NCBI GenBank assembly: GCA_038203955.1
Contig: JBBRDK010000002.1
Location: 17,424-81,423, forward strand
DNA length: 64,000 nt
Direction: 5' to 3'
From: Thermoanaerobaculia bacterium
GTDB taxonomy: Bacteria; Acidobacteriota; Thermoanaerobaculia; UBA5066; Gp7-AA6
Positions 519 through 49,726 of this stretch are shown one piece after another. How positions within the stretch are numbered: position 1 is the first letter of the stretch; every line of letters begins with the position of its first letter. The notes beneath the pieces were generated by a model, which was not told the origin of the DNA, searched no databases, and was given only the letters and a program-made list of their open reading frames with translations. The translations under genes and the position numbers were made by a program.

Positions 519-1073
519 TCACGCCGTCTTCTCGAGGATCCAGACTTCGTCCGTCCCGTCGGTCTCCTGAAACATGACCTTGATCACCTCGCGGCCCGCC
601 GTGGGGACGCTCTTCCCCACGTAGTTCGCTTCGATCGGCAGCTCCCGGTGGCCTCGGTCGATCAGGACCGCGAGGCGCATCGCCCGGGGCCTGCCGAGAT
701 CGATGATCCCGTCGAGCGCGGCCCGGATGGTTCGCCCGGTGTACAGCACGTCGTCGCACAGGAGAACGGTTCTCCCGTTCAGGTCGAAGTCGATCTCCGT
801 CTTCTTCAGGAGCGGCTGCGGGGCGACGAGGGAGAGGTCGTCCCGGTACAGGGTGATGTCGAGCGTGCCCACCGGGAACGGCCGCTCGACGAGCTCGCCG
901 AGGCGCGCCGCGAGGCGGGTGGCCAGGGGGACGCCCCGGGTGCGTATCCCGATGAAGGCCAGGTCGGGAAGGTCCTTCTGGCGCTCGGCGATCTCGTGCG
1001 CCATGCGATCGACCATGCGACGGATCCGCTCGCTGTCGAGAATCCGGGCCTTTTTGACGAGCGTTTCAGCCAA
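519..1073 (-). CDS. pyrR: bifunctional pyrimidine operon regulator / uracil phosphoribosyltransferase PyrR
   Basis: 184 aa; VLLCDDVLYTGRTIRAALD PRTase motif; PyrR-like over its full length; directly upstream of pyrB. Confidence 0.9.
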   Translation of the reverse strand: MAETLVKKARILDSERIRRMVDRMAHEIAERQKDLPDLAFIGIRTRGVPLATRLAARLGELVERPFPVGTLDITLYRDDLSLVAPQPLLKKTEIDFDLNGRTVLLCDDVLYTGRTIRAALDGIIDLGRPRAMRLAVLIDRGHRELPIEANYVGKSVPTAGREVIKVMFQETDGTDEVWILEKTA

Positions 1074-1189
1074 CGTCGGGGCAGTCTATGGGCGATGTCC
1101 CCCCCCGTCAAGGCGCGGGCCCCGGCGGAAAACGGCCGAAAACTGCCCTCTGTCCGGACGATTCGAGTTAGAATTGCACAAAAATAGAA

Positions 1190-3202
1190 ATGGTCATCTA
1201 CAACGCGGCTACGCGTGAGCTGACGGCGAAGATCGTGTACTACGGTCCGGGTCTGGGCGGCAAGACCACGAACCTGCACCTGCTCCACGAGCGCCTGGAG
1301 CCCGCGACCGTCGGGAAGCTCCTGAATCTCGCGACGCAGACGGACCGGACGATCTACTTCGACCTTCTTCCGGTCGAGCTCGGCGACATCAAGGGCTACA
1401 AGATCCGTTTTCAGCTCGCGACGGTGCCGGGACAGACCGCCTTCAACGAAACGCGCCGCGTCGTCTTGAAGGGAACCGACGGCATCGTCTTCGTCGCGGA
1501 TTCCCAGTGGACCATGCTTCCGAAGAACCTCGAAAGCTGGCAGAACCTCAAGGAAAACCTGAAGGCCAACGGGGTCTCGTTCGAGGGCATCCCGATCGTC
1601 ATCCAGTACAACAAGCGCGACTTGAGCGACATCCTCTCCGTCGACGCGCTGCAGGAGGCCCTCGGGCTTTCCGCCTATCCCTTCGTCGAAGCGGTCGCGA
1701 GCGCCGGACGGGGCGTCACCGAGACGTTCAAGCTGATTTCCAAGCTGACATTCGTCGATCTCCTTCGCCGGCTGCAGGGCCGGAAGCCCGAGGAGGCCGG
1801 GCCGCTCCCTCCCCGCCGGGAGCCGGACGACCTGCTCTCGTGGAAGGATTCACTCTTGAACCGGGGCGCGGCTCCCCCGCCGGCGCCCGCTCCCTCCCGC
1901 GAGGCTCCGCCGGCGGCCGATTCCGGATCCCTCGCGAAACGGCCTCTCGCGCTCGTGCCGTCGCTTCCCGACGAAGCGCCGTTCGAGACGGAGGACGCGG
2001 CGGACGTCGCGTCGGAGGTTTCCGCGGAGTCCGACGCTCCGTTCTCCGAAACCGGCGCCTCGCATCGCGCGGCCGCCGGCCCGCCGGCGCACTCCGACGG
2101 TCCGCCGCCTCCCTCCTCGGAGGCGTGGTCCACAGGCGCGCTCCCGGAGCTTTCGCTGCCCCCGCTGCCGGCGATCCCCGATCTCGAGCCGGCCGGCCCC
2201 ATTGCGGCGGAGACCACACCGGAGGCGCTCACGCGGGAATCCCTCGGTAGCCCGTCGCCCGAATCGCCGGAACCGCTCGAGTTCCTGGATCCCGCGACCG
2301 CCCTGGACGCTCCCTCGGAGATGGAGCACGGCGCGAGCTCGGAATCCGGCGCGAGCGCCGAGTCCGCTGCCACGCCGACGCTCGCTTCCGTCTCGAGCGA
2401 GGCTCGCGAGCCGGTCGAAGCCTCCCGCGGGGCGGCGTCAGCCGAGGCCGCGGTAAACGAGCAGACGGACGCCCGCTTCCGGGCTCTCGAGGCGAAGGTG
2501 GAAGAGGCCGTGGAGGAAATCGCCCGCGAGCGTGAGGAGCGACACCGCGCGGAAGTAGAACGCCGCCGCTCGGAAAGCGACGCGGCGGCGCTGACGGCGC
2601 GCCTGGAGACCATCGAGCGCGAGGCGCGGGACCTCGGAAAGACTCTTGGAGAAAAACACGACTCGTTCGAGGGACGAATCCAGGCGCTCGCCGGATCGCT
2701 CGAGGGACGGGACGACGTGGAGGCCCGGATTCGTGAGGCGCACGACCGGCTTTCCGCCAGCGAGAAACGGCAGCGCACCTACGAGGACGACGTCTCGATC
2801 TCGCTGCGCAGTTTCGGCGAGCGCGGCGAGAAGGTATCGGCGCAGATCGCCGGGATCGCAGAACGCCACGACCGTCTCCAGGAACAGATCGCCACGATCC
2901 ACCAGCAGATCGAGGTGCTCGAGGCCGCTCTCAGGGAGAAGACGTCGCAGAGCCGCCGCGAGGCGGATGACATTCGGACCGAGCTTCAGACGCTCCGCGG
3001 AGCGATCGAGGAGCGGATCGGGCACGGCCATCGCGAGGCCGAAGACATCCGGAGCCAGATCGCGCCGCTTCTCGAGGCCCACGGGCAGCGCGGCGCGGAC
3101 GACGAGCGCCTCTCGCAGGAGTTCGACCGCCTTCGGGAATCGCTGGCCGACTCGCTGGGAGACCTTTCGGAGCGGCTGCGGAGAGCCGTGCGGGGGGCGT
3201 AA
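1190..3202 (+). CDS. MglA-like Ras-family small GTPase (residues 1 to ~195) fused to a ~250-aa Pro/Ala/Ser/Glu-rich disordered linker and a ~230-aa coiled-coil C-terminal region
   Basis: N-terminus MVIYNAATRELTAKIVYYGPGLGGKTTN...TVPGQ...IQYNKRD matches the MglA G1/G3/G4 motifs almost position for position. The C-terminus is ERE/heptad-rich (EARIREAHDRL, LQEQIATIHQQIEVLEAAL). The ORF is unbroken for 670 codons. Confidence 0.7.
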   Translation: MVIYNAATRELTAKIVYYGPGLGGKTTNLHLLHERLEPATVGKLLNLATQTDRTIYFDLLPVELGDIKGYKIRFQLATVPGQTAFNETRRVVLKGTDGIVFVADSQWTMLPKNLESWQNLKENLKANGVSFEGIPIVIQYNKRDLSDILSVDALQEALGLSAYPFVEAVASAGRGVTETFKLISKLTFVDLLRRLQGRKPEEAGPLPPRREPDDLLSWKDSLLNRGAAPPPAPAPSREAPPAADSGSLAKRPLALVPSLPDEAPFETEDAADVASEVSAESDAPFSETGASHRAAAGPPAHSDGPPPPSSEAWSTGALPELSLPPLPAIPDLEPAGPIAAETTPEALTRESLGSPSPESPEPLEFLDPATALDAPSEMEHGASSESGASAESAATPTLASVSSEAREPVEASRGAASAEAAVNEQTDARFRALEAKVEEAVEEIAREREERHRAEVERRRSESDAAALTARLETIEREARDLGKTLGEKHDSFEGRIQALAGSLEGRDDVEARIREAHDRLSASEKRQRTYEDDVSISLRSFGERGEKVSAQIAGIAERHDRLQEQIATIHQQIEVLEAALREKTSQSRREADDIRTELQTLRGAIEERIGHGHREAEDIRSQIAPLLEAHGQRGADDERLSQEFDRLRESLADSLGDLSERLRRAVRGA

Positions 3203-3272
3203 GAAAGTTGAGAGTTTAGAGTCAGGAGTTCAGACCAAGAAGCCGGCGGTGTGCACTCTCAACTCTCAACTC
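3203..3272. terminator. putative bidirectional terminator hairpin built from AGTTGAG-type heptamers between the convergent mglA-like gene and era
   Basis: AGTTGAGAGTT ... AACTCTCAACT are perfectly complementary arms; the unit carries TGA on both strands; it lies between two convergent stop codons. Confidence 0.4.
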
Positions 3273-4207
3273 CCTCCCACCAGCCTCGATAGAAACCTCT
3301 CGTCTTCCCGCCAGTCCGCGCGGACGCGGACGGTGAGCTCTAAGAAGTAGCGCCGGCCGCTCTGCGCTTCGAGCTCCTGGCGGGCGGCGGTGCCGATGTC
3401 CCGGATCATCGTGCCGCCCCGCCCGACGATGATCCCCTTCTGCCCTTCCTTCTCGACCACGATGGACGCGGAGACGACCGTCAGGTTCTTCGCCTCGTCT
3501 TCGCGGACGGACTCGACCAGGACGGCGGAGGCGAAGGGCAGCTCTTCGCGCGTGCGCTCCAGAAGCTTCTCCCGCACGACTTCGCCGATCCATTCCGACT
3601 CCGGCGTCGCGGTCAGAAAGTCGTCGTCGTACGCCGCCTCGCCCGCGGGAAGGGCGGCGACGAGAAGGGAGGCCAGACGCTCGACGCCGTCTCCGGTCTT
3701 CGCGGAGATCGGAATCACGTCGCGAAAGGCATAACGGGCGGAAAAATCCGCGAGCAGCGGGAGCAAGGCGGGCTTGGGGAGAAGATCGACCTTGTTCAGG
3801 GCGAGAATGGCGGGCTTTCCGGCCCGCTCGAGAAGGCGGATCAGAAACTCCTCTCCCTTGCCGCGCCGATCGGCTGCGTCGATCACGAGCAGAACCAGGT
3901 CGGCCGTCGACAGCGCGTCCGTCGCGTCGCGAACCATGGCGGAATTCATGCGGTGCTCCGGCCGGTGGATCCCGGGCGTGTCCACGAGAGCGATCTCGGC
4001 CCCCGGCCGCCGCGCAATGCCCAGAATCCGCCGCCGGGTCGTCTGAGGCTTGTCGGAGACGATGGCCACTTTTTCGCCGACCAGCCGGTTGACGAGAGTG
4101 GATTTTCCGGCGTTCGGGCGCCCGACGACGGCGACCGCGCCCGCCCGGAAGGGGACGGCGTCTTCGGAGGGGACGGAGTCTCCGACGGGGACGGCGTCTT
4201 CGTTCAC
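3266..4207 (-). CDS. era: GTPase Era
   Basis: AVVGRPNAGKSTLVN G1 motif, DTPG, NKVD, C-terminal KH domain (VVREKLLERTREELPFA...). GTG start overlaps the corC stop as GTGA. Confidence 0.85.
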   Translation of the reverse strand: MNEDAVPVGDSVPSEDAVPFRAGAVAVVGRPNAGKSTLVNRLVGEKVAIVSDKPQTTRRRILGIARRPGAEIALVDTPGIHRPEHRMNSAMVRDATDALSTADLVLLVIDAADRRGKGEEFLIRLLERAGKPAILALNKVDLLPKPALLPLLADFSARYAFRDVIPISAKTGDGVERLASLLVAALPAGEAAYDDDFLTATPESEWIGEVVREKLLERTREELPFASAVLVESVREDEAKNLTVVSASIVVEKEGQKGIIVGRGGTMIRDIGTAARQELEAQSGRRYFLELTVRVRADWREDERFLSRLVGGS

Positions 4208-9411: not shown

Positions 9412-9987
9412 CTAGCGACCGTCGGCGATCGCCTTCGCGACTTCCTCGAGGCCGTTCTCGACCGCGTCCCGGATCGTCGAGCCCTTGTTCTTGTGGCGGA
9501 TCTCACCGACGACGTTGCCCTTCGCATCCTTGACCAGGACCTCCACGCCCACGCCCGGGTTGGCCATCCAGCCTCCCCAGTAACGGCCGGCGCCCCGCGG
9601 CTCCCAGGCGTTGAAGACGTTGCCGGTGACCACGAGGTCCCCGCCCGACTTGACGACCTTGAAGCCCTGCTTGTCCAGCCACTGCTCCATGTAGTCACGG
9701 GCGTCGTGAGCGGCGTCACGCGCCTCGCGGCCGCGGCCGTTCTCGTCGAACTCCTTCACCGAGACAGTCCGGTACTTCTTGAGGCTTCCCTCCGGGAAAT
9801 AGACCCAGTCGGCGTCCTTGCCCTTGGTGAGCTTGTCGTAATCGGGCAGGAACTTCGCGGGCTCGTCCCTTTCCTTCGCATCGTCCGAGTCCTGGAATCC
9901 CTTCTTGGCCGCTTCTGCGGGGCGGGCGGAGAGTACGAGGAAGGCGACGAGAGACATGGCAAACAAACGCGTCGTGTGACGAAGCAT
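9412..9987 (-). CDS. secreted hypothetical protein (signal peptide)
   Basis: Signal peptide MLRHTTRLFAMSLVAFLVLSARPAEA; strong RBS (AAGGAGG); no motif I can name. Confidence 0.6.
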   Translation of the reverse strand: MLRHTTRLFAMSLVAFLVLSARPAEAAKKGFQDSDDAKERDEPAKFLPDYDKLTKGKDADWVYFPEGSLKKYRTVSVKEFDENGRGREARDAAHDARDYMEQWLDKQGFKVVKSGGDLVVTGNVFNAWEPRGAGRYWGGWMANPGVGVEVLVKDAKGNVVGEIRHKNKGSTIRDAVENGLEEVAKAIADGR

Positions 9988-11826: not shown

Positions 11827-13572
11827 TTAGTTCGTTCGCTTCCCCAGCACGACGGCCCACGGCGCGCCGCGCTCGTCTGAGATTCGCGACACGACTCGCT
11901 CTCCGAAATCGAGGGGAGTTTCCGGAGGCGCGACGCGGAATAACCGCCGCCCGGGTGGAACCGGCGCCTTTGGGGCGTCGGCTCGACGCACGCGTCTGAC
12001 CGCCTCCACCGCGGGTGTCCAGTGGACGAGCCGGGAGTCGATCTCCACGCGCCCGAATCGCTCCCACACGAGCGCGGTCCGCGCGAGGAGGTTGTCGTGC
12101 CCCTCGAATCCGTCGAGCACCTCCAACCGGGGGGCCCAGTCGAGGAAGAGCGCGCGCACCGAAAGAGCTCCCGCGACGAGGAGAGCCCCGACGGCGGCGA
12201 GGGCCGCCGGCCGCGCCGCCCGGAGAGACACGGCCCCGACGAGCGCGAGAACGCCCGCCGCGGCGGCCACGCCGGTCACCGTCGTCAGATAGGCGAACCG
12301 GAATCCGTTCGGCTGCATGACCGGTCCGGAGGCGACGAAGGCGGCGGAAGCCGCCGCCGCATGGGCGAGGAGAAACGCGGAGAGCTCCCGGGCCGGGAAC
12401 AACAGCGCACGCCCGAGCGCGAGGGCGACGGGAACTCCGATCAGCCATCCTAGCCGGGGCCTTGGGACGTCCTGCCAGGGAGAGGGATCCGGGAGCCACC
12501 ACGGCGCGGCGATCGCGTCGGCCGCCGCGGTGAGCGCAGGCCACGGCGAGCGCGCGGCGCGCAGCTCACGAACCATGCTCTGGTCGCCGGCGCGCGCGAA
12601 ATAGGCAGCGCGCCGCCCTTCGCGCAGCAGAAACAGCGGCGCGGCGATCAGCGCAAAGCCCGCCGCCACCGCCAGCGCGTGGCGGACGCGGCGCGGCGCC
12701 GGCGGCCCCGCTTCGAGAGGCCAGAGGGCGAAGAGAAGGGAGGCGCCGAGGGCGATCCACGACGCCAGGTAAACGTGCGCCCCGAGGCCGAGAAGGGCTC
12801 CGGCAGCGAAGGCGGCGGACGCCGACCGCCGGCGCACGGCGCGCAGAAGAGCGAGCGCCGCGAGATCGACGAGCGGCGCGATCACGACGGCCACGTATCC
12901 CCAGCGGGAAAGGATCAGGCTCCAGCGCAGTCCGGCGACGACCAGCCCCGCGAGGGTCCCTCCCCCGCGCGGTAGGAGCGCGCGTCCCAGCAGGATCGCG
13001 GTCACAACGGAGAGACTGCCGGCGAGCGCGGAGAGGAATCGCACGCCGAACACCGTCGCGCCGAACGCGTGAAGCGTCGCGCGGAAGAGCTCGAGGTAGA
13101 GCACCCCGACGCTGCCGTACGGCCGGGCGACGCCGAAGGGCGCGGGGCGGATCGCATCCGCGAAGTCACGCCACGTCCCGGAGAGGGCAAGCGAAGGATG
13201 GATCAGCGTGAGGTCCTCGATCCACAACGCAACCGGCACCGACGAGAGCCGCCAGAAACGCAGCGCCGCGCCCGCCGCGACCACGCCGACCGCCAGCGCG
13301 GCCAGAGTGGTCCCGCGCCACCGGAGCGGTTCGAGCGGCGCGCGGGCGACCGCCGTTTCGCTCCACAGAAGGAAGGCCGCCGCGCCCAAAGCGCCCGCGG
13401 CCCCCGCCGCAGCGATGGCGGCCAGGGTGAGTACGAGCCGCGGCAGCGCCCAGGCTGGATCGGGGTCGGTCAGCAGCAGGGGACGGATGGCGCGGACCAC
13501 CGCCGCGGCGGCGACGAGAGCGGCGCCCAAGCCGGCGGCCAGCGCGGCGCGCTCCGGACGCGCGAGCGTCAT
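11827..13572 (-). CDS. GT-C fold membrane glycosyltransferase (ArnT/PMT-like), paralog B
   Basis: ~12 predicted TM helices; first loop LWIEDLTL (D/E motif); similar to the upstream paralog along its whole length; ATG overlaps the upstream stop (ATGA). Confidence 0.65.
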   Translation of the reverse strand: MTLARPERAALAAGLGAALVAAAAVVRAIRPLLLTDPDPAWALPRLVLTLAAIAAAGAAGALGAAAFLLWSETAVARAPLEPLRWRGTTLAALAVGVVAAGAALRFWRLSSVPVALWIEDLTLIHPSLALSGTWRDFADAIRPAPFGVARPYGSVGVLYLELFRATLHAFGATVFGVRFLSALAGSLSVVTAILLGRALLPRGGGTLAGLVVAGLRWSLILSRWGYVAVVIAPLVDLAALALLRAVRRRSASAAFAAGALLGLGAHVYLASWIALGASLLFALWPLEAGPPAPRRVRHALAVAAGFALIAAPLFLLREGRRAAYFARAGDQSMVRELRAARSPWPALTAAADAIAAPWWLPDPSPWQDVPRPRLGWLIGVPVALALGRALLFPARELSAFLLAHAAAASAAFVASGPVMQPNGFRFAYLTTVTGVAAAAGVLALVGAVSLRAARPAALAAVGALLVAGALSVRALFLDWAPRLEVLDGFEGHDNLLARTALVWERFGRVEIDSRLVHWTPAVEAVRRVRRADAPKAPVPPGRRLFRVAPPETPLDFGERVVSRISDERGAPWAVVLGKRTN

Positions 13573-15395
13573 GCGGGGCCGCGCGCGGGGCGCGGGACCG
13601 CCAGGACGACTCCCCAGTCGCGCCCCCAGGCATCGCGCACGCGCTCCACCACTCTCTCTCCTCCGCGGGGCGCGGAGCGCGGGGCGGCGACGCGGAAAGC
13701 GCGAGGGGAAATCGACGCGAGCAGCGGCATTCCCGGCGCCGCGCGATCCGGGTCCAGCCGGTACCGGCGGACCGCGTCGACGGTGATCGGAGAGTGCTCG
13801 GTGCCGGATTCGACCGATACCGGGCCGAAGGTTTCCCACCGGGCGGCCGCCCGTCCGAGGAGGGTGTCCTGTCCGTGGAACGCGTCGAAGGTCTCGCGCT
13901 GGACCGGCCAGACGGCGAGAGCATCCCGGGCGCCGAGTGCTCCCGAGACCGCCACGACGCCGACGGCCGCGATGGCAGCCGCCCGCCGCGAGAAATCGAC
14001 CGGCCGCGGCGCGCGCGGCTGCCGCCGCGACGCGGCGAATGCGCGGCCGGCGAGAAGCAGAATCCCGCAGGCGGCGGCGACGGCCGCCACGTCGGCGAGA
14101 TAGCCGAAGCGGTAGCCGTTGGGGATTCCCGCCTGCCCTCCGACCACGGAGGCGGCGAGCGCGGCGGCGCCGTGAGACAGGAAAAACGCGGAAGGCTCCT
14201 CGCCGGGACGCGCGAGCGCGCGCGCCGCCGCGACTCCGAGGGGCACGACCATCAGCCAGCCGAGGAGGGCGTACCCCGAGAAGGGATCCGGGCGCCCCCA
14301 GGGAGCGGAGAGCGAGTCGGCGGCCGCCGCGAAGAGCGGCATGGGAGAGCGGGTCCGGCGCATCTCCCGAACCACGTTGTGATCCGACGCCCGCGCGAAA
14401 TAGGGAGCGACGCGCCCCTCCTTCCAGAGAAAGATGGGGAGGGTGACGAGAAAAAAAGCGGCAGCGAAGGTGAGAGGTAACCGCGCAAGAGGGCGCAAGC
14501 GAGTGACCGCCGCGGGAGTCCCCGAAGGGCCCGGCACCGGCATCGGCCAGAGCGCCAGCAGCAGGAGCGCCGCCGCGGCGACCCACGCGGCGAGATACAC
14601 GTGGGTTCCGATCCCCGCGACCGCTCCGGCGGCGGCGGCGAGCCACGCGCTCCGGCGCCGCCGCGCGAGAAGAACGAGAAGACCGGCCGCGTCGACTATC
14701 GGCGCGAGCACCACCGCGTTCCAGCCCCACCGGGAGTTCAGGAGGTTCCACCGCAGCGCCGCGAACGCGAGGGCGGCCAGGGCGCCTCCGCCGGAGGGGA
14801 GGAGCATCCGTCCGAGGAGGTAGACCGTTCCGATCGAGCAAACGCCCGCCGCCGCGGCGAGGAACCTCACTCCCAGGACCGTGGTGCCGAACTTAGAGAG
14901 GGCCGCGCGATATCCCTCGAGGTAGAGAACGCCCACGCTTCCGTACGGCTTCTCCACCCCGTACGGGGCGGGGCGGATCGCGTTGACGAAGTCCGACGGC
15001 GCTCCCCGCAGCTCGAGAGCGGGGGTCACGAGCGAGAGGTCGTCGATCCACAGAGACGAAGGCAGGCGTTCGAGCGCGGCGAAGCGAAACAAGGCACCGA
15101 GGATCAGCGCGAGCAGCGCGAGCCCCCCGAGCGAGCGCTTCGACAGCGCGAGCGGCTCGACGGGTGTGGTCAGAATCCCCCCCCGGTCGACCCAAACGCG
15201 AAAGATTCCGGCGGCGGAGCCGGCCGCGAACGCGGCCCCGGCGATCGCGGCGAGGCCGAGCAGCATCCGCGGCGCCGCCCACGCGGGATCGGGGTCGGTG
15301 AGGGGGAGCGGACGGAAGACCCGCACGAGGTCGACCGCGGCGACGAAACCGAAGAGAAGCCCGACGAGGAAAGCGGCCGGGTTCCCCGGCCTCAC
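13569..15395 (-). CDS. GT-C fold membrane glycosyltransferase (ArnT/PMT-like), paralog A
   Basis: 608 aa, polytopic; LWIDDLSL loop motif; RPAPYGVEKPYGSVGVLYLE conserved with paralog B. Confidence 0.65.
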   Translation of the reverse strand: MRPGNPAAFLVGLLFGFVAAVDLVRVFRPLPLTDPDPAWAAPRMLLGLAAIAGAAFAAGSAAGIFRVWVDRGGILTTPVEPLALSKRSLGGLALLALILGALFRFAALERLPSSLWIDDLSLVTPALELRGAPSDFVNAIRPAPYGVEKPYGSVGVLYLEGYRAALSKFGTTVLGVRFLAAAAGVCSIGTVYLLGRMLLPSGGGALAALAFAALRWNLLNSRWGWNAVVLAPIVDAAGLLVLLARRRRSAWLAAAAGAVAGIGTHVYLAAWVAAAALLLLALWPMPVPGPSGTPAAVTRLRPLARLPLTFAAAFFLVTLPIFLWKEGRVAPYFARASDHNVVREMRRTRSPMPLFAAAADSLSAPWGRPDPFSGYALLGWLMVVPLGVAAARALARPGEEPSAFFLSHGAAALAASVVGGQAGIPNGYRFGYLADVAAVAAACGILLLAGRAFAASRRQPRAPRPVDFSRRAAAIAAVGVVAVSGALGARDALAVWPVQRETFDAFHGQDTLLGRAAARWETFGPVSVESGTEHSPITVDAVRRYRLDPDRAAPGMPLLASISPRAFRVAAPRSAPRGGERVVERVRDAWGRDWGVVLAVPRPARGPA

Positions 15396-15453
15396 GCGAA
15401 GATCAGCGCCGGGCCCGTCTGTTCTCGAGGAACCGTCACCTCTGAAAGAGCCG

Positions 15454-15978
15454 TCACTTCTCGAAGAAGAGGAAGAGATTCACGGCCGTCGGGCCGAGCG
15501 AGAAGAAGTCCCCCGAGCGCAGCGTCGCCGCGCAATCGTCCTCCGTCGCTCCGCCGAGATCGTCGGGGACGGGGATCGCCTCGCCGTTCAAGTACGTGCC
15601 GCACGTGGACCGCATGTCGACCAGGCGAAAATGCGGCGTCGAAGAGAAGAGACGGCGATAGAGCTTCGCGTGGATCCGCGAGACCTCGGCGTTTAAAAAC
15701 GCGTCGGGAGACGACACGCGAAATCCCGAGACGGGCATCCCGACGCCGATGAACTCGGGAACCTCGCGCCCGATCAGCAGCTCCTCGAAATCGAGCTTGA
15801 CGAGGCCGGCGTTGTACGGGCCGAGCCCCAGCAGGTAGTGCCCCTCCGGCAGCCGCAGAAGAGTCTTCTCGAGGCGGGAGGACATGCCGGCCATTCCGTT
15901 ATCGACGAAGGACATGACGTCCCGCTGGCGGGATTCCAGCGCTTCCCGGCAGATCGCGGAATAGAGATCGTCTTTCAT
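15454..15978 (-). CDS. FHA domain-containing protein
   Basis: C-terminal FHA signature ...LLIGRE...FRLVDMRSTCGTYLNGEAI...; 59 nt upstream of the GT-C pair on the same strand. Confidence 0.65.
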   Translation of the reverse strand: MKDDLYSAICREALESRQRDVMSFVDNGMAGMSSRLEKTLLRLPEGHYLLGLGPYNAGLVKLDFEELLIGREVPEFIGVGMPVSGFRVSSPDAFLNAEVSRIHAKLYRRLFSSTPHFRLVDMRSTCGTYLNGEAIPVPDDLGGATEDDCAATLRSGDFFSLGPTAVNLFLFFEK

Positions 15979-18408: not shown

Positions 18409-18909
18409 ATGAGCATTCAACAGTTTCGCCGATCCGTCCTGGTGGTGGCCGGGGTCGCTGCTCTGGCGGCCGCGGGCCTTTTCGCCGGGCGTCTGTCCGC
18501 CGACGCCTTTCCGAACAAGGGCCGCGGCGATTTCGCTCCCCGGATGTTCGGGCGGATGGCGCGATTCCTCGAGCTGACCGACGACCAGCAGGCGCAGATC
18601 AAGACCGTTCTGAAGGCGCACGCCGCCGAGATCGAAGCGCAGATGGCCGCCAAACGAACCGCCCGGCAGGCCCTGCGGCAGGCGATGCTCTCGCAGCCCG
18701 TCGACGAAGCGGCGATCCGGGCCCGGGCCGAGGAGGGTGGAAAGGTCGAAGCCGACGGCGCCGTGCTCTTCGCGCGGATCCGGACGGAGATCGATCCGAT
18801 CCTAACCCCCGACCAGCGAACGAAGGTTCAGACGTTTGCGACGCGGTCGCGCCGCCGCCGCGACAACGCGATCCAGTCCTTCGACCGGTTCATCAAGAGC
18901 GGCTCGTAG
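18409..18909 (+). CDS. periplasmic Spy/CpxP/ZraP-family (LTXXQ motif) protein
   Basis: Signal peptide; two LTxxQ motifs (LTDDQQAQI, LTPDQRTKV); helical repeat architecture. Confidence 0.75.
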   Translation: MSIQQFRRSVLVVAGVAALAAAGLFAGRLSADAFPNKGRGDFAPRMFGRMARFLELTDDQQAQIKTVLKAHAAEIEAQMAAKRTARQALRQAMLSQPVDEAAIRARAEEGGKVEADGAVLFARIRTEIDPILTPDQRTKVQTFATRSRRRRDNAIQSFDRFIKSGS

Positions 18910-18914
18910 CATCG

Positions 18915-19477
18915 TCTTGACCGCGCCCGTCCCCGCCTCTCCTCCGGCGTCCTCTCCCCGGTCCGACGAAGCGGCCCTGGTCGAGAAGGCGCGCCGCGGG
19001 GACGAAGACGCCTTCGCGGAGCTGATTCGTCTGGGCGGGCCCGCGGCCCTCGGAGCCGCGCGCCGAATCACCCGGGACCCGGCCCTCGCCCAGGATGCGG
19101 CCCAGGAGGCCTTCCTCCGCGCGTACCGGGCGCTCGGGGACTACCGGCAGGAATCGTCGTTCGTCGCATGGATCCGGAAGATTGCGGTTCGCACCGCGAT
19201 CGATCTTGTCCGCCGCCGCCGCCCGGAAGACCCGCTTCCCGAAGGCTCGCTGGCAGGCGCGTCGGAAGAGAAGCGGCAGGAGGACGCCGACCTCCTTCGC
19301 GTGGCCCTCGCCACGCTCTCTCCGCTCGACCGGGAGATTCTTATCGCCCGGGAAGTCGAGGGGACAGGCGACGCGGAGGTCGCCCGCCGTTTCGAGATGA
19401 CCGTCACGGGAGTGCGCGTGAGGATGCACCGGGCGCGCAAGAAGCTGCGGGCCCGTTTTCTGGGGGGGATGGTATGA
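18915..19477 (+). CDS. ECF (sigma-70 family) RNA polymerase sigma factor
   Basis: Region 2 (FAELIRL...AQDAAQEAFLRAYRAL) and region 4 (LSPLDREILIAREVEG...VARRFEMTVTGVRVRMHRARKKLR); start probably TTG near 18915. Confidence 0.8.
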
Positions 19478-19866
19478 GCATCGAGAAGACGAGCTGCGCG
19501 CGAGTCGTCGCGGACCTTCGCAGAGGGACTCTGACGCCGCGGGAGGAGTCGCATCTCTTCGTCTGCCGGTCCTGCCGCGGCGAAGCGAGGCTCGCCGCCG
19601 CGTGGAAAGCGATGCCCTCCCCGCGGGACGGGGAGAGAGCCGACCCGGTCGACGAGAGCTTCGTCCAGGGCGTGCTGCGCCGGGTCCGCGAAGACCGGCT
19701 TCGGCGAGTCCGCCGCCGCATGGGGATCGCCGCCGCCGCCGCGCTGCTGTTCTTCTTCGCGGCCGGCCTCGGGCAGAGGGCGAATGCGAGCCCGCCGGAT
19801 GACGGCGACGAGTCGTATGCCCAGATCGTGACCGCCTCGCCGGAGTCGGTTCTGCCGAGTGAGTAG
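19474..19866 (+). CDS. anti-sigma factor (Cys-rich N-terminus, single TM)
   Basis: ATG overlaps the sigma stop (ATGA); HLFVCRSCRGE zinc-finger-like motif; TM segment IAAAAALLFFFAAGL. Confidence 0.6.
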   Translation: MSIEKTSCARVVADLRRGTLTPREESHLFVCRSCRGEARLAAAWKAMPSPRDGERADPVDESFVQGVLRRVREDRLRRVRRRMGIAAAAALLFFFAAGLGQRANASPPDDGDESYAQIVTASPESVLPSE

Positions 19867-27731: not shown

Positions 27732-29552
27732 CTAGGATCCGGCCCGCGGCGCCTGCTCCCGCACGCGCCGGGTTCCGGGGCGCGCCGAGGCCGGGGGGGC
27801 GACGGACCGTTCCGGCCCGCACGTTCCACGCAGGATCGTGCCGTGCCGGCCGACCGCAAAGATCTGGCCCGAGAGGGCGCGGATTTTGTAGAGGTCGTTG
27901 GTCGTCTGGGACGGCACCGGCGCCCACGTCGCGCCGTCCGGGCTCTCGAGCCTCACCCCGCCCTCGCCGACCGCGACGTAGCGGGATCCCGTCCACGCGA
28001 CGCCTCCCAGGCCGGCGCCGGTGCCGGCATACCGCTCTTCCCAGCGAATGCCGTCCGTGCTCGTCAACACGGCGCCGCTATCACCGACCGCGACGAACCC
28101 GGAGCCGTTCGACGCCACGTCGGATAAGGTGCCTCCGGAGTTCGCATAGCGGAGGGTCCAGTGGAGGGCATCCGGGCTCGTCGACACGACGCGCGCCGCG
28201 TCTGCGCCCACGCCGACGTACTGCCGCCCGTCGTAAGCGACCGCGTAGAAGCCGCCCTGCGCGCGATCACCGGCGAGCCAGGTGATCCCGTCCCGGCTCG
28301 TCTCCGTGGTCCCCGAGTAGCCAACCGCGACGAATTGAGACCCGTCCCACAAAACGTCCATGAACGTGTCGGTCCGCTCGGGAGAGACGGATGCCCACGT
28401 CACGCCGTCTGCACTGGAGAGAATCGTGCCCTGGTTGCCGACCGCGACCCAGCGGCTTCCGCTCCCGGCCACTCCGTAGAGGTGCCGCGTGCTGTTCTTC
28501 CCGCGGGGCGTCCACGTCGCGCCGTCCGGACTCGTCAGGATCGTCGTGTACACGCCGACCGCGACGAACTGTTTTCCATCCCAGGCGATCGAAGTGATGG
28601 CGTTGTTGCGATAGCCACCGCCGGCGGGAGTCCACGTCGCAGCGTCGCGGCTCGTCAGAACGGTGCCCCGGGCGCCGACGGCAACCAGGGTCGAGCCGTC
28701 GGTCGCGAGCGCGGCGAGATCGCTGATCGTCGGAGAAGCCGCATGCGTCCATCGCGCGCCGTCGGCGCTCGAGAAAACGGTGCCGGCCTCCCCGACTCCG
28801 ACGAAGCCGGAGCCCGTCCACTGGATCGACTGCATCGGATACGCGAGCCCTTGCGAGTCGCTCGACCACTGCATCCCGTCGGCGCTGCGCAGGACGCTCG
28901 CGGTCGCCATGAATCCGGTCGATCCGACGACGAACTGCGAGCCGTTCCAGGCGACGGCGGAAAGGATGTCGCGCGTTTCGAAAGGCGCCGCGGCCCACGA
29001 GACCCCGTCCGCGCTGACGAGCAGCGCGCCGAGATCTCCGACCGCCACGTAACGGGACCCGTTCCACGCGATGTCACGGAGGTTCTTCGAGGAGCCCGAC
29101 GTCCTCGGCGTCCACGCGGCCCCGTCCGGGCTGGTGGTCACCGCGCCACCGGCGCCGACCGCGACGAACTGCGAACCGCTCCAGGAGATCCGGCGAAGCG
29201 TCTGCGCCGTTCCCGAACCGTGAGGGGTCCAGGAGACTCCGTCCGGGCTCGTCATCGCCGCTCCGCCGGCCCCGACGGCCAGGAAGAGAGAGCCGTTCCA
29301 GGAGACCGCCTCGAAGTCGGCCCGGGAGTTCGACACGCGCGGCGTCCACGTCGATCCGTCCGGGCTCGTCAGGACCGTCCCGGCGGCGCCGACCGCGACG
29401 AACGTCCCTTTTCCGAACGCGACGCCGCCCAGGCGGTTGCCCTGGGGCGTCGGGTTCAGCCACTGGAAGTCTCCGCACTGTCCTGCGGCGGGAAGGGCCA
29501 GCAGAATCGACACCGCGGCCGCGAAGAGGGATTTCGTCAACGTGCGGTACAT
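27732..29552 (-). CDS. secreted BNR/Asp-box repeat beta-propeller protein
   Basis: Signal peptide; ~12 repeats of W-x-G-x-x-FVAVG...G..L.S.DG..W with the S-x-D-G-x-T/S-W Asp-box (TSPDGSTW, SSADGVTW, ...). Confidence 0.75.
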   Translation of the reverse strand: MYRTLTKSLFAAAVSILLALPAAGQCGDFQWLNPTPQGNRLGGVAFGKGTFVAVGAAGTVLTSPDGSTWTPRVSNSRADFEAVSWNGSLFLAVGAGGAAMTSPDGVSWTPHGSGTAQTLRRISWSGSQFVAVGAGGAVTTSPDGAAWTPRTSGSSKNLRDIAWNGSRYVAVGDLGALLVSADGVSWAAAPFETRDILSAVAWNGSQFVVGSTGFMATASVLRSADGMQWSSDSQGLAYPMQSIQWTGSGFVGVGEAGTVFSSADGARWTHAASPTISDLAALATDGSTLVAVGARGTVLTSRDAATWTPAGGGYRNNAITSIAWDGKQFVAVGVYTTILTSPDGATWTPRGKNSTRHLYGVAGSGSRWVAVGNQGTILSSADGVTWASVSPERTDTFMDVLWDGSQFVAVGYSGTTETSRDGITWLAGDRAQGGFYAVAYDGRQYVGVGADAARVVSTSPDALHWTLRYANSGGTLSDVASNGSGFVAVGDSGAVLTSTDGIRWEERYAGTGAGLGGVAWTGSRYVAVGEGGVRLESPDGATWAPVPSQTTNDLYKIRALSGQIFAVGRHGTILRGTCGPERSVAPPASARPGTRRVREQAPRAGS

Positions 29553-34974: not shown

Positions 34975-35036
34975 GGAGCTCTCAGCTCTCAGCTCTCAGC
35001 TCTCAGCTCTCAGCTCTCAGCTCTCAGCTCTCAGTC
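34975..35036. repeat. tandem heptamer array (GAGCTCT / CTCAGCT) x ~8
   Basis: Perfect period-7 array between convergent genes; it supplies the TGA stop of the minus-strand gene 35024-35722. Confidence 0.95.
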
Positions 35037-35722
35037 CTGAGTCCCCTGGTCTCCGCCTTCTTCCAGATCGCCATCTCGCGGCACAGCCACGTGCCGGCGA
35101 TCACCGCAGCGGCCCAGATGACGAAAGACAGCCCACGCGTCAACGCGGCGAGACCGCGGTCCCAGTCGAGGAGTCCGACCCGCGACAGCATCCAGTTCCA
35201 GTCGTGGATGGGATCCGGGACGAACCCCACGAGGGGAAGCTCCTGCGCCCGCGCGTCGCCGACGTACGCCGCGAGCCCGGACAGGGACGAGGCGAGCCAC
35301 GCGGCCGCGACCGTGATGCCGAACCAGTCCCGCTGACGCGCGAGCATCCATCCCGCCGCGACCGGCGCCGCCACCTGCGCCAGGCTTCCGCCCGCGATCG
35401 AGGGCCACTGCCCCGCCCAGGCGAGGACCAGGTGGCCGAGCTCGTGGAATCCGAGAGTGATTCCCCCGAAGAGGTCCGTCGAGAGCGGGTCGCGCAGCCG
35501 GCGAAGACCGGACCAGGCGAAGTAGACGACGAGGGGCGCTCGCCAGAGCCACGACCGGCCGGCGCACCATTCCCGGGCCTGCGCCTTCCAGGCGGAGAGC
35601 CGGGAGGACACGGACGCGGAGTCGATCACCGGCGGGGGGGAGGCGGGCCGAGGCGGCGATTTCCCGGCCTCGCGCGCCGTCGAGGGCGGGCGCGTCGAGG
35701 GAGGCGGGACGAACACTCCCAA
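35024..35722 (-). CDS. polytopic membrane protein with HExxH motif (possible M50/S2P-like intramembrane metalloprotease)
   Basis: GFHELGHLVLAW within a predicted TM helix; several further TM helices; N-terminus and start (TTG/GTG) uncertain. Confidence 0.4.
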   Translation of the reverse strand: MGVFVPPPSTRPPSTAREAGKSPPRPASPPPVIDSASVSSRLSAWKAQAREWCAGRSWLWRAPLVVYFAWSGLRRLRDPLSTDLFGGITLGFHELGHLVLAWAGQWPSIAGGSLAQVAAPVAAGWMLARQRDWFGITVAAAWLASSLSGLAAYVGDARAQELPLVGFVPDPIHDWNWMLSRVGLLDWDRGLAALTRGLSFVIWAAAVIAGTWLCREMAIWKKAETRGLRTES

Positions 35723-49617: not shown

Positions 49618-49726
49618 GGTGCCGGGGACAGCAACGAGCCGTCCGGCGCCTAAATTCCAGCCGGGGCGCGCCTGACGCGAGTTCGGAAGGCTCGGCGGGT
49701 CGAGCGCGCGCCCCGCCGCTAACGGA

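What the first reader, a model, noticed from the sequence alone, without database searches (positions are those of the whole stretch)
1190..3202. MglA-type small GTPase fused to a ~470-aa disordered plus coiled-coil C-terminal extension
Residues 1 to ~195 match MglA (Ras-like polarity GTPase) almost motif for motif: P-loop GPGLGGKTTN, switch II TVPGQ, NKRD. MglA is normally a stand-alone ~195-aa protein partnered by MglB. Here the same ORF continues through a ~250-aa Pro/Ala/Ser/Glu-rich low-complexity linker into a ~230-aa heptad-rich coiled coil. No mglB (roadblock/LC7) gene is adjacent. Covalent fusion of the GTPase to a filament-like or scaffold coiled coil would be an unusual architecture for a polarity or motility switch.
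Basis: partly seen in the sequence, partly recalled or inferred. Interest (0 to 1): 0.6.

Follow-up and report, generated by a model that had tools for sequence, protein, structure and literature searches.

The report
Long MglA GTPase with coiled-coil tail
This is a real, intact gene for an MglA-type molecular-switch GTPase permanently joined, through a floppy linker, to a long rod-like tail. The design is conserved across one class of uncultured Acidobacteria, and I found no paper describing it, although what the protein does is still inferred.

Summary
Window 1190..3202 (+) is one intact 670-aa ORF.

- **GTPase (residues 1-197).** It is a Group-1 MglA domain: PDB MglA E=7e-56, 48% identical to M. 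xanthus MglA without gaps. G21, R53, T54, D58, TVPGQ, NKRD and the allosteric-pocket residues L64/I67/K181/K185 are all present.
- **Linker (residues 198-424).** It is a hypervariable, acidic Pro/Ala-rich stretch carrying conserved short motifs (DDLLSWKDSLL, RPLxLVP, EAPFE).
- **Tail (residues 425-670).** It forms two long helices (AlphaFold pLDDT 91) with 3.5-residue hydrophobic periodicity, a 25-aa REAEDIR repeat and a conserved last helix.

The fusion is not a frameshift artefact. At least 111 full-length homologues exist. A tail-only profile found 78 species-level genomes, all Acidobacteriota/Thermoanaerobaculia MAGs. GTPase and tail share one ORF in 69 of 82 loci, and the locus is fixed between pyrR and era.

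No MglB (Roadblock/LC7) homologue lies within ±10 kb in any locus or anywhere in the 64-kb window. The rest of each genome could not be searched.

The tail was found only fused to MglA. The main census of prokaryotic small GTPases excluded proteins over 240 aa, and no paper on this form was found.

Best reading: a cycling MglA switch tethered to its own coiled-coil scaffold or anchor. I rate it a new variant of a known kind, of moderate interest.

The parts
1190..3202 (+). Complete 'long MglA' gene (670 aa plus stop), apparently monocistronic
   Evidence: ORF list. Identical protein P0001 in the public collection and more than 100 full-length homologues. It is divergent from pyrR and convergent with era.
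1190..1780 (+). Group-1 MglA GTPase domain (aa 1-197)
   Evidence: PDB MglA hits at E=7e-56 with an ungapped alignment over 3-192. 48% identity to M. xanthus MglA. 93% mean pairwise identity within the family.
1244..1267 (+). G1 / P-loop GPGLGGKT (aa 19-26), with G21 retained
   Evidence: G21 is the position that is Ser in the MglB-less, presumed GTP-locked Bdellovibrio MglA (PMC3983030).
1343..1351 (+). G2 region D52-R53-T54: intrinsic arginine finger next to the G2 threonine
   Evidence: Invariant in 111 sequences. This is the defining Group-1 feature according to PMC4316618.
1421..1435 (+). G3 / switch II TVPGQ (aa 78-82), including catalytic Q82
   Evidence: Invariant in the family. TVPGQ is the Group-1 signature; Groups 2-5 have GTPGQ.
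1610..1621 (+). G4 NKRD (aa 141-144)
   Evidence: Invariant.
1781..2461 (+). Acidic Pro/Ala-rich disordered linker (aa 198-424)
   Evidence: Over aa 226-424 across the family: 21% Pro, 20% Ala, 12% Glu; net charge -0.11 per residue; length 83-227 aa; 33% pairwise identity. AlphaFold predicts no regular structure apart from one short helix.
1826..1864 (+). Conserved juxta-GTPase motif DDLLSWKDSLLNR (aa 213-225), a short acidic amphipathic helix
   Evidence: D213, D214, L215, W218, S221, L222 and R225 are at least 90% conserved. Predicted helix 215-223. The D[DE][LIM]xxW pattern is present in 59 of 65 intact species-level members.
1940..1987 (+). Conserved short linear motifs RPLALVP (aa 251-257) and EAPFE (aa 262-266) inside the linker
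   Evidence: P252, V256, P257, E262 and F265 are at least 90% conserved and P264 is invariant. The [DE]xPF pattern is present in 53 of 65 members.
2462..3199 (+). Coiled-coil tail (aa 425-670): helix 1 about 420-502 and helix 2 about 510-669
   Evidence: AlphaFold tail-only model has pLDDT 91.3 and pTM 0.35, with two helices. Hydrophobic periodicity is 3.5-3.57. Only generic coiled-coil matches in PDB, Pfam and NCBIfam. Foldseek against PDB gives no hit.
2765..2833 (+). Conserved mid-tail motif KRQRTxEDDVxxxL...ERGEK (aa 526-548)
   Evidence: D533 and D534 are invariant; R527, R529, E532, A538, L539, E544, R545 and E547 are at least 90% conserved.
2936..3085 (+). Two tandem 25-aa repeats, EKTxQxRREA(D/E)DIRxQ... 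(aa 583-607 and 608-632)
   Evidence: The motif starts at aa 589 and aa 614. The spacing is exactly 25 in 78 cases across the family, with 1-3 copies per protein by the motif count.
3119..3196 (+). Conserved C-terminal helix EFDRLRESLADSLGDLSERLRRAVRG (aa 644-669)
   Evidence: It lies in one of the best-conserved parts of the tail: the last 75 aa have 63% pairwise identity. It is present in 58 of 65 species-level members.
519..1073 (-). pyrR (context only): divergent upstream neighbour, heading the pyrR-pyrB-pyrC genes
   Evidence: Pfam Pribosyltran, OTCace and Amidohydro_1 in syntenic loci. This neighbour is conserved in 64 loci.
3266..4207 (-). era (context only): convergent downstream neighbour, last gene of the phoH - HD-domain membrane protein - ybeY - corC - era cluster
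   Evidence: The single-linkage cluster that includes the window's era and phoH ORFs is present in 76 loci.

Best explanation
The gene encodes a hydrolysis-competent, cycling Group-1 MglA switch. An 80-230-aa acidic, proline-rich flexible linker joins it permanently to a helical tail of about 250 aa.

My preferred mechanism has four steps:
1. The tail self-associates into a coiled-coil rod. It fixes the protein at a defined cellular site or scaffold through its conserved last 75 residues.
2. The rod therefore presents two or more GTPase heads on long flexible tethers.
3. The heads cycle between GTP and GDP states, using the MglA-type intrinsic arginine finger (R53) and Q82. A GAP encoded elsewhere in the genome probably drives the cycle.
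4. In the GTP state, the heads recruit or release effectors at that site.

In effect, the switch and a scaffold like those that are separate proteins in Myxococcus (coiled-coil effectors AglZ and FrzS; Pro-rich/Glu-rich RomR) are merged into one polypeptide.

What is shown: the domain architecture, retention of the catalytic and partner-binding residues, the helical and heptad character of the tail, conservation of the family, fixed synteny, and the absence of a linked mglB.

What is inferred: oligomerisation, localisation, the existence of a GAP acting in trans, and any role in polarity.
For: **GTPase identity and competence.**
- E=7e-56 to solved MglA structures.
- G21, R53, T54, D58, Q82, TVPGQ and NKRD are identical to M. 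xanthus MglA. In 111 family members R53, T54, D58, TVPGQ and NKRD are invariant and G21 is at least 90% conserved.
- These are the Group-1 criteria of PMC4316618.
- A glycine at position 21 goes with a cycling, MglB-partnered MglA according to PMC3983030.

**Partner surfaces are kept.**
- The beta2 residues are Y56/F57/L59 (F56/F57/F59 in M. xanthus).
- The MglB Ct-helix pocket residues L64, I67, K181 and K185 are identical to M. xanthus and invariant in the family.

**Tail is a rod.**
- Two helices of 78 and 162 residues at pLDDT 91, but pTM only 0.35, meaning no compact fold.
- 3.5-3.57-residue periodicity.
- Weak hits only to tropomyosin, keratin, sigma-1 and GCN4-type coiled coils.

**Graded constraint fits a head-tether-anchor design.**
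- Pairwise identity is 93% in the GTPase, 33% in the linker with 83-227 aa length variation, 49% in the tail and 63% in the last 75 aa.

**Real, vertically inherited gene.**
- 78 species-level genomes, all Acidobacteriota/Thermoanaerobaculia by record title.
- One ORF in 69 of 82 loci.
- Constant pyrR | gene | era position.

**Tail occurs only with MglA.**
- A tail profile searched against 1.84 billion representatives gives 17 hits below 1e-30.
- Of the 49 top-ranked hits inspected, those carrying the family's C-terminal motifs are either MglA fusions or look like contig-edge fragments; the others are generic long coiled-coil proteins.
Against: - No experiment or localisation data exist, and no cultured organism appears among the 78 genomes.
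- The neighbouring genes are housekeeping and give no functional hint. The 64-kb window has no pilus, gliding or chemotaxis genes among the ORFs scanned.
- No MglB homologue lies within ±10 kb in any of 82 loci. A GAP acting in trans is therefore assumed, not shown, and whole genomes could not be searched.
- The oligomeric state of the tail is untested, because only monomer AlphaFold runs were available.
- The conserved linker motifs and the retained acidic-helix pocket fit regulation within the same molecule equally well (rival 1).
Confidence: 0.45

Rival explanations
1. Self-regulating switch. The C-terminal extension mainly regulates the GTPase within the same molecule. The conserved acidic amphipathic helix DDLLSWKDSLL (aa 213-223), or the EAPFE motif or the Glu-rich tail, folds back into the allosteric pocket formed by L64, I67, K181 and K185. 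In M. xanthus that pocket binds the acidic C-terminal helix of MglB (EISDDDIDNLF) or the Glu-rich end of RomR. This would give built-in control of nucleotide exchange, or auto-inhibition, and would explain why no mglB is linked. This reading can coexist with the scaffold model.
For: - The pocket residues are identical to M. xanthus and invariant in the family.
- Baranwal et al. 2019 report that basic alpha5 residues co-evolve with acidic MglB Ct-helices, and that a RomR helix can substitute for the MglB helix.
- The DD-hydrophobic-x-x-aromatic motif lies about 15 residues after alpha5. It is at least 90% conserved amid a hypervariable linker, is predicted helical, and is present in 59 of 65 members.
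- No MglB is found in any locus.
Against: - The resemblance to the MglB Ct-helix is a match of 5-6 residues and could be chance.
- The short-linker subgroup (410-444 aa) lacks the DDLxxW motif, and five of its six members also lack the APF motif, yet a family-wide motif count finds the pocket residues in 64-65 of 65 members. The pocket is therefore not tied to that motif.
- The full-length AlphaFold model gave only low confidence for the GTPase and the juxta-helix (pLDDT 37-64). No contact information was available.
Confidence: 0.25
2. A housekeeping GTPase unrelated to polarity or motility. The MglA fold has been recruited in Thermoanaerobaculia for another core process, such as cell division, envelope growth, or nucleoid or ribosome-linked organisation. 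The coiled coil then acts like the rods of SMC, EzrA or DivIVA-type proteins.
For: - The gene sits in a fixed housekeeping locus between the pyrimidine genes and the phoH-ybeY-corC-era cluster in 60-76 genomes.
- The GTPase is extremely conserved (93%), which is typical of core machinery.
- No motility genes were found among the ORFs scanned in 64 kb.
- Weak hits to SMC and Rad50 coiled-coil regions.
Against: - The gene is not co-oriented with either neighbouring operon, so synteny implies no shared function.
- All characterised Group-1 MglA proteins (M. xanthus MglA and SofG, T. thermophilus, Bdellovibrio) position pili or motility machinery.
- The SMC-type hits are far below their cut-offs (24.9 bits against 567) and reflect composition only.
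Confidence: 0.2
3. Artefact. The long ORF results from a frameshift, a missed stop codon or a chimeric assembly that joins a normal 195-aa mglA to an unrelated downstream coiled-coil gene.
For: - 13 of 82 related loci have the GTPase and the tail in different frames or ORFs.
- One 1.7-kb contig encodes a tail with an unrelated N-terminus.
Against: - 69 of 82 loci, and 111 database proteins from independent projects, have one continuous ORF.
- The split cases are contig ends or assemblies, most of them MFD-named MAGs, with several frame breaks in the same gene.
- GC3 is uniformly high across the ORF.
- Conserved motifs run through the junction, with LLRRLQGR invariant up to G197.
- No stand-alone tail gene was found, apart from apparent fragments.
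Confidence: 0.01

Closest known systems
Group-1 MglA of Myxococcus xanthus and Thermus thermophilus (PDB 5ymx, 6h17, 6izw, 3t12)
   Same: - GTPase domain with an ungapped alignment over residues 3-192 and 48% identity.
- G1 GPGLxGKT, the intrinsic arginine finger R53, T54, D58, TVPGQ with Q82, and NKRD.
- Hydrophobic beta2 face.
- The MglB Ct-helix pocket L64/I67/K181/K185.
   Different: - The known proteins are single-domain, 195-196 aa, and are usually encoded next to mglB.
- This protein carries a 473-aa C-terminal extension.
- No mglB lies within ±10 kb in 82 loci.
- GTPase activity and GAP dependence were not tested.
SofG (M. xanthus MglA paralogue) and Bdellovibrio bacteriovorus MglA, the two characterised 'orphan' MglA proteins
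   Same: - Group-1 MglA proteins that are not encoded next to mglB (PMC4316618; PMC3983030).
- From my own knowledge, not checked here: SofG also carries an extension and works together with a polymer scaffold, the bactofilin BacP.
   Different: - SofG is 239 aa. From my own knowledge, its extension is short and N-terminal, and its scaffold is a separate protein.
- Bdellovibrio MglA has Ser21 and is thought to be GTP-locked. The protein here keeps Gly21, so it is expected to cycle.
RomR (M. xanthus polar MglA regulator: receiver domain, Pro-rich linker and Glu-rich C-terminus)
   Same: - A proline-rich flexible region followed by an acidic helical C-terminal part.
- Baranwal et al. propose that the Glu-rich end of RomR binds the same MglA pocket that is conserved here.
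   Different: - There is no receiver domain here.
- No sequence homology was detected: the tail profile finds only this family plus generic coiled coils.
- The resemblance is compositional and architectural only.
AglZ and FrzS (coiled-coil effectors of MglA-GTP in M. xanthus)
   Same: Long coiled-coil rods that work together with MglA. [quoted passage not shown]
   Different: - They are separate proteins with N-terminal receiver-like domains. Here the rod is covalently attached to the GTPase.
- No homology was detected.
Eukaryotic GTPases with coiled-coil extensions (septins; large Rab GTPases such as Rab44/45/CRACR2A). Analogy only, from general knowledge.
   Same: A Ras-superfamily or related G domain joined in one chain to a coiled coil that mediates self-assembly or tethering.
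   Different: - They are unrelated in sequence beyond the G-domain fold, and the domain order and partners differ.
- There is no evidence here that the G domains polymerise.

Membership tests
MglA family, Group 1 (Wuichet & Sogaard-Andersen 2014, PMC4316618) | Significant sequence similarity of the G domain to characterised MglA proteins | tested here: met
   phmmer against PDB: M. xanthus MglA E=7e-56, T. thermophilus MglA E=3e-54, residues 3-192. The next-best hits (Sec4, Arl2 and others) have E>=8e-4.
MglA family, Group 1 (Wuichet & Sogaard-Andersen 2014, PMC4316618) | Intrinsic arginine finger adjacent to the conserved G2 threonine | tested here: met
   D52-R53-T54 is present and invariant in 111 family members.
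MglA family, Group 1 (Wuichet & Sogaard-Andersen 2014, PMC4316618) | G3 motif TVPGQ (Thr in place of the usual Asp; Groups 2-5 have GTPGQ) | tested here: met
   T78-V79-P80-G81-Q82 is invariant.
MglA family, Group 1 (Wuichet & Sogaard-Andersen 2014, PMC4316618) | Bacterial MglA insertion between G1 and G2 | tested here: met
   The alignment to M. xanthus MglA is ungapped from residue 3 to 192, so the G1-G2 spacing is identical.
MglA family, Group 1 (Wuichet & Sogaard-Andersen 2014, PMC4316618) | Single-domain protein of 150-240 aa (the census inclusion rule) | tested here: not met
   The protein is 670 aa; the family ranges from about 410 to 723 aa. The census excluded sequences over 240 aa.
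MglA family, Group 1 (Wuichet & Sogaard-Andersen 2014, PMC4316618) | Coupling to mglB (encoded within four genes). True of 390 of 449 family members, so typical rather than obligatory. | tested here: not met
   No Roadblock/LC7 family hit among 30 window ORFs scanned. phmmer --max with M. xanthus MglB against six-frame ORFs of 82 loci plus the window (1.44 Mb) gave a best E of 5.3. No conserved neighbour of MglB size.
MglA family, Group 1 (Wuichet & Sogaard-Andersen 2014, PMC4316618) | GTP binding and hydrolysis stimulated by a Roadblock-type GAP | not testable with these tools
   This needs biochemistry. Whether mglB exists elsewhere in these genomes could not be checked, because only ±10 kb per genome was available.
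Coiled-coil protein (C-terminal 250 aa) | Long uninterrupted alpha-helices | tested here: met
   AlphaFold gives helices 420-502 and 510-669 in the full-length model. The tail-only model has pLDDT 91.
Coiled-coil protein (C-terminal 250 aa) | Heptad-type (about 3.5-residue) periodicity of hydrophobic positions | tested here: met
   The power spectrum of family-averaged hydrophobicity peaks at 3.5-3.57 in all three tail segments and is several-fold weaker at 3.0, 3.3, 3.67 and 4.0.
Coiled-coil protein (C-terminal 250 aa) | Self-association into a two- or multi-stranded rod | not testable with these tools
   Only single-chain prediction was available. The low pTM (0.35) with high pLDDT fits an extended helix that needs a partner, but does not prove it.
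RomR-like polar regulator | N-terminal response-regulator receiver domain and detectable homology of the C-terminal region | tested here: not met
   No receiver domain in the Pfam or NCBIfam scans. The tail profile retrieves only this family and generic coiled coils.

The most novel reading that the evidence does not exclude
Thermoanaerobaculia may have condensed the whole MglA polarity module into one polypeptide. In this reading, an MglA head is regulated within the same molecule by its own acidic helix, which replaces the MglB or RomR helix at the K181/K185/L64/I67 pocket. The head is carried on a self-assembling coiled-coil rod or filament. That would make it a bacterial, septin-like 'GTPase on a polymer' that needs no Roadblock GAP.
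Probability: 0.12. Interest if true: 0.75.

Novelty: new variant of a known kind. Interest (0 to 1): 0.5.

Why it matters
MglA is the model bacterial Ras-like polarity switch. Current models rest on a stand-alone GTPase whose position and nucleotide state are set by separate proteins (MglB, RomR/RomX, MglC, and coiled-coil effectors).

This family shows a conserved lineage in which the switch is welded to a long tether and a rod, with no linked GAP gene. That has three consequences:
- **It acts as a natural 'Rosetta-stone' fusion.** It argues that tethering MglA to a scaffold is a workable design.
- **It offers testable material.** The conserved linker motifs and the retained acidic-helix pocket could be used to test the allosteric-pocket model outside Myxococcus.
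- **It exposes a blind spot.** The reference census removed all sequences over 240 aa, and public annotations call these proteins 'ADP-ribosylation factor-like' or 'SRP receptor beta'.

It also marks a lineage-specific cell-biology feature of an abundant, uncultured class of Acidobacteria found in soil and sediment.

Tried and rejected
1. **Exact look-up of the window protein**: not on record, so context came from homologues instead.
2. **Pfam and NCBIfam on the tail**: only sub-threshold coiled-coil noise. Families PF27605 and PF28019, precomputed for a few homologues, are not in the local Pfam copy, so what they are stayed unknown.
3. **Rosetta-stone search for a stand-alone tail**:
   - Tail profile against 1.84 billion representatives. 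Among the 49 top-ranked hits inspected, the family-like hits without a GTPase domain start mid-linker or mid-tail and look like contig-edge fragments.
   - The one apparent 'membrane helix + tail' protein (P0122) lies on a 1.7-kb contig at the same era-adjacent locus. Its first 263 nt match nothing, so it is probably a truncated or chimeric contig. I did not count it.
4. **Foldseek of the tail model against PDB**: no hits. A profile search of PDB sequences found only generic coiled coils at E>=1.5e-3.
5. **Full-length AlphaFold**: the GTPase domain came out at low confidence, probably because the alignment is 93% identical there. The model could not show whether linker motifs dock on the GTPase.
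6. **mglB near the gene**: none found. I judged that a protein search with M. xanthus MglB would list only myxobacterial relatives in its top 120.
7. **Literature**: no paper in the library links MglA with Thermoanaerobaculia or Acidobacteriota, and none describes an MglA-coiled-coil fusion.
8. **Rfam, tRNA, tandem-repeat and promoter/terminator scans**: nothing that bears on the gene. There is one promoter-like site on the minus strand for pyrR and no terminator-like site after the gene.
Full report
**1. Observation**

Window 1190..3202 (+) is one uninterrupted ATG-to-stop ORF of 670 aa. Its third-position GC is 0.85, like its neighbours. An identical protein (P0001) exists in the public collection on an 83.8-kb contig.

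Residues 3-192 align without a gap to the solved MglA structures of M. xanthus (5ymx/6h17/6hjh, E=7e-56) and T. thermophilus (3t12, E=3e-54). The next-best PDB hits (Sec4, Arl2 and others) are at E>=8e-4. Pfam sees only Arf and Ras just above threshold, and NCBIfam sees only small_GTP below threshold. This explains the public names 'ADP-ribosylation factor-like' and 'SRP receptor beta'.

Identity to M. xanthus MglA is 48% (92 of 190). The following are present:
- G1 GPGLGGKT, including G21;
- R53, T54 and D58;
- G3 TVPGQ;
- G4 NKRD.

**2. Anatomy of the extension**

An alignment of 111 full-length homologues (A1; profile; statistics) divides the protein into four zones.

| Zone | Residues | Mean pairwise identity | Notes |
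|---|---|---|---|
| GTPase | 1-197 | 93% | Conserved through LLRRLQGR, invariant up to G197 and so beyond the 195-196-aa length of canonical MglA |
| Juxta-GTPase segment | 198-225 | 60% | Contains DDLLSWKDSLLNR; D213, D214, L215, W218, S221, L222, R225 at least 90% conserved; predicted helix 215-223 |
| Linker | 226-424 | 33% | 83-227 aa long; 21% Pro, 20% Ala, 12% Glu; net charge -0.11 per residue; predicted disordered |
| Tail | 425-670 | 49% (63% over the last 75 aa) | Conserved motif blocks listed below |

The linker still holds islands of conservation: RPLxLVP (251-257), EEAPFE (261-266, with P264 invariant) and a second PF (P284 invariant).

The tail has three conserved blocks:
- KRQRTxEDDVxMAL...ERGEK (526-548);
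- two 25-aa repeats, EKTxQGRREAEDIRxQ... (583-632);
- the terminal helix EFDRLRESLAESLGDLSERLRRAVRG (644-669).

The 25-residue spacing recurs in 78 repeat pairs across the family, with one to three copies per protein by the motif count.

AlphaFold predicts the tail as two long helices. In the full-length model they span 420-502 and 510-669. The tail-only model has pLDDT 91.3 but pTM only 0.35, meaning an extended rod rather than a globule. Family-averaged hydrophobicity has its spectral peak at 3.5-3.57 residues in every tail segment. The only weak PDB sequence matches are to classical coiled coils: reovirus sigma-1, tropomyosin, keratin, GCN4 chimeras and the P22 tail needle. Foldseek finds nothing. 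The oligomeric state is untested.

**3. Is it real, and how widespread is it?**

The protein search returned 4,108 hits. The best 120 are almost all 500-700 aa with the same layout, and the sources that name an organism say Acidobacteriota or Thermoanaerobaculia.

A profile of the tail alone (A2) was used to scan one genome per GTDB species. It found 78 loci in 78 genomes. Every record title is an Acidobacteriota or Thermoanaerobaculia MAG, and none is a cultured strain.

In 69 of the 82 loci held, the GTPase and the tail lie in one ORF. The other 13 loci are contig ends or assemblies, most of them MFD-named MAGs, with several frame breaks inside the gene. Across 65 intact species-level members, length runs from 410 to 723 aa. 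TVPGQ, DRT, LGDIKG and FKLISK are present in 64-65 of them. The frameshift or chimera explanation is effectively excluded.

**4. Context**

In four genomes with precomputed annotation, and in the clustering of all loci, the gene always sits alone. Upstream lie the divergently transcribed pyrR-pyrB-pyrC genes. Downstream lies the convergently transcribed phoH - 7TM-HD - ybeY - corC - era cluster. pyrR is present in 64 loci, and the cluster holding the window's era and phoH ORFs in 76.

No small gene of MglB size is conserved nearby. I confirmed that my recalled M. xanthus MglB sequence is identical to PDB 6h5b_B. I then searched it with phmmer --max against all six-frame ORFs of at least 70 aa in the 82 loci plus the whole window, 1.44 Mb in total. 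The best E-value was 5.3. Pfam scans of 30 window ORFs showed no Roadblock/LC7.

The rest of the window is housekeeping:
- UvrD, CarB, ArgRS and chorismate synthase;
- a SpoIID/SPOR protein and LolE/FtsX-type permeases;
- ECF sigma factors and an ATP synthase c-subunit-family protein.

The window has no Rfam hits or tRNAs. The gene is thus an 'orphan' mglA in the sense of the census paper. Whether mglB exists elsewhere in these genomes could not be tested.

**5. Is the tail known elsewhere?**

The tail profile searched against 1.84 billion representative proteins gave 232 hits at E<=1e-3, 49 at E<=1e-10 and 17 at E<=1e-30.

Inspection of the 49 top-ranked hits shows two kinds of family-like match. 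Some are MglA fusions, including short-linker forms of 404-477 aa. The rest begin in the middle of the linker or tail and look like contig-edge fragments. Other hits, including some stronger than 1e-14, are long multi-stretch coiled-coil proteins, which I read as compositional matches.

The single odd case is P0122, with a hydrophobic N-terminus followed by the tail. It lies on a 1.7-kb contig at the same era-adjacent position. Its first 263 nt match no other locus. I treat it as unresolved and probably an assembly or truncation artefact.

I therefore found no independent 'tail gene' whose partnership with a short MglA would explain the fusion.

**6. What the G domain says about mechanism**

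PMC4316618 defines Group-1 MglA by the intrinsic arginine finger next to the G2 threonine and by TVPGQ. Both are invariant here.

PMC3983030 reports that MglA proteins with Gly21 generally co-occur with MglB. The MglB-less Bdellovibrio protein has Ser21 and is thought to be GTP-locked. This family keeps Gly21 (at least 90% conserved), so it should cycle.

PMC6785124 shows two further points:
- The MglB Roadblock dimer docks on the hydrophobic beta2 face (F56/F57/F59).
- The acidic C-terminal helix of MglB (EISDDDIDNLF) binds a distal pocket made by L64, I67, K181 and K185. This promotes nucleotide exchange, and the Glu-rich end of RomR can substitute for it.

Here beta2 reads Y56/F57/L59. L64, I67, K181 and K185 are identical to M. 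xanthus and invariant in the family. The protein has therefore kept the surfaces used by a Roadblock GAP and by an acidic regulatory helix.

**7. Explanation**

My preferred reading (confidence about 0.45) is a cycling MglA switch tethered by a long acidic Pro/Ala linker to a self-associating coiled-coil rod. The conserved C-terminal 75 residues of the rod would anchor it to a cellular site. The GTPase heads would recruit effectors there, and a GAP would be supplied in trans. The gradient of constraint fits a head-tether-anchor design: head 93%, tether 33% with free length variation, anchor 63%.

A non-exclusive rival (0.25) is regulation within the same molecule. The conserved acidic helix DDLLSWKDSLL, or the EAPFE motif, would occupy the K181/K185/L64/I67 pocket and replace the MglB or RomR helix. 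Against a strict link, the short-linker subgroup lacks the DDLxxW motif, and five of its six members also lack the APF motif, while the pocket motifs are found in 64-65 of the 65 members.

A third reading (0.2) is that the MglA fold has been recruited to a non-motility core process. This is suggested only by the housekeeping locus and the absence of motility genes nearby. The artefact reading is at about 0.01.

**8. Comparison and novelty**

The G domain is a bona fide Group-1 MglA on every sequence criterion I could test. The protein fails the two contextual criteria: single-domain size and mglB coupling.

The census that defined the family discarded all sequences over 240 aa by design. Five full-text searches found no paper that links MglA with Thermoanaerobaculia or Acidobacteriota, or that describes an MglA-coiled-coil fusion. 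The paper library is incomplete, so absence there is not proof.

I rate it a new variant of a known kind. The enzyme is familiar, in an apparently undescribed, lineage-wide architecture with conserved linker motifs. Interest is moderate (0.5). A specialist in bacterial polarity would want to know about it, and it offers a natural test of the allosteric-pocket and scaffold ideas. However, the function is wholly inferred and there is no cultured host.

Noticed in passing
L083 1-1677 (protein P0122, gene 74-922): A 282-aa protein with a hydrophobic, transmembrane-like N-terminus (MGMLAIFGGLGVLGLALVCY...) followed by a full long-MglA tail. It lies next to era on a 1.7-kb JGI contig. The first 263 nt match none of the other loci. 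It could be a chimeric or truncated contig, or a rare membrane-anchored stand-alone tail.
   Followed up: partly
L022, L050, L055, L058, L076-L080, L082 (about 8.2-10.9 kb in each): In these MAGs, all with MFD-series isolate names, the long-mglA gene is split over two or three frames. The breaks look like assembly indel errors rather than pseudogenes, but I did not check this.
   Followed up: partly
window 9412-9966 (-): A 184-aa protein with a signal-peptide-like N-terminus and no Pfam hit, located just after phoH. It is conserved at the same position in 62 of the related loci, so it is a lineage-specific secreted protein of unknown function.
   Followed up: partly
homologues P0073, P0080, P0081 (PF27605.1) and P0087, P0089, P0090 (PF28019.1): The precomputed Pfam column lists two recent accessions for a few family members. 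The local Pfam-A copy does not contain them, so I could not tell whether Pfam already models part of the tail.
   Followed up: partly
window 1160-1192: The 30 nt before the ATG are AT-rich (GTTAGAATTGCACAAAAATAGAAATG) in a 68% GC genome, and they lack a recognisable Shine-Dalgarno sequence. No sigma-70-like promoter was found on the + strand. The one promoter-like site (1111-1083) faces pyrR.
   Followed up: no
window 11827-15978 (-): Two tandem paralogous PMT_2-type membrane glycosyltransferases (581 and 608 aa) with an adjacent small FHA-domain protein (174 aa). This arrangement also appears downstream in loci L003 and L004.
   Followed up: no
window 18442-19866 (+) and 48964-50368 (-): Two ECF sigma-factor modules. 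The first has a periplasmic LTXXQ/Metal_resist protein, a sigma factor and a 130-aa ORF with no hit. The second has a sigma factor and a weak, sub-threshold zf-HC2 match suggesting an anti-sigma protein.
   Followed up: no
window 27732-29552 (-), 35024-35722 (-), 38814-40334 (+): Three sizeable ORFs with little or no annotation: 606 aa with only a partial DUF6242 match, 232 aa with no hit, and 506 aa with a signal-like N-terminus and no hit.
   Followed up: no
window 1074-1189 and pyrR leader: No Rfam family was detected anywhere in the window at gathering thresholds, including any PyrR-binding attenuator near pyrR. There are no tRNA genes in the 64 kb.
   Followed up: yes
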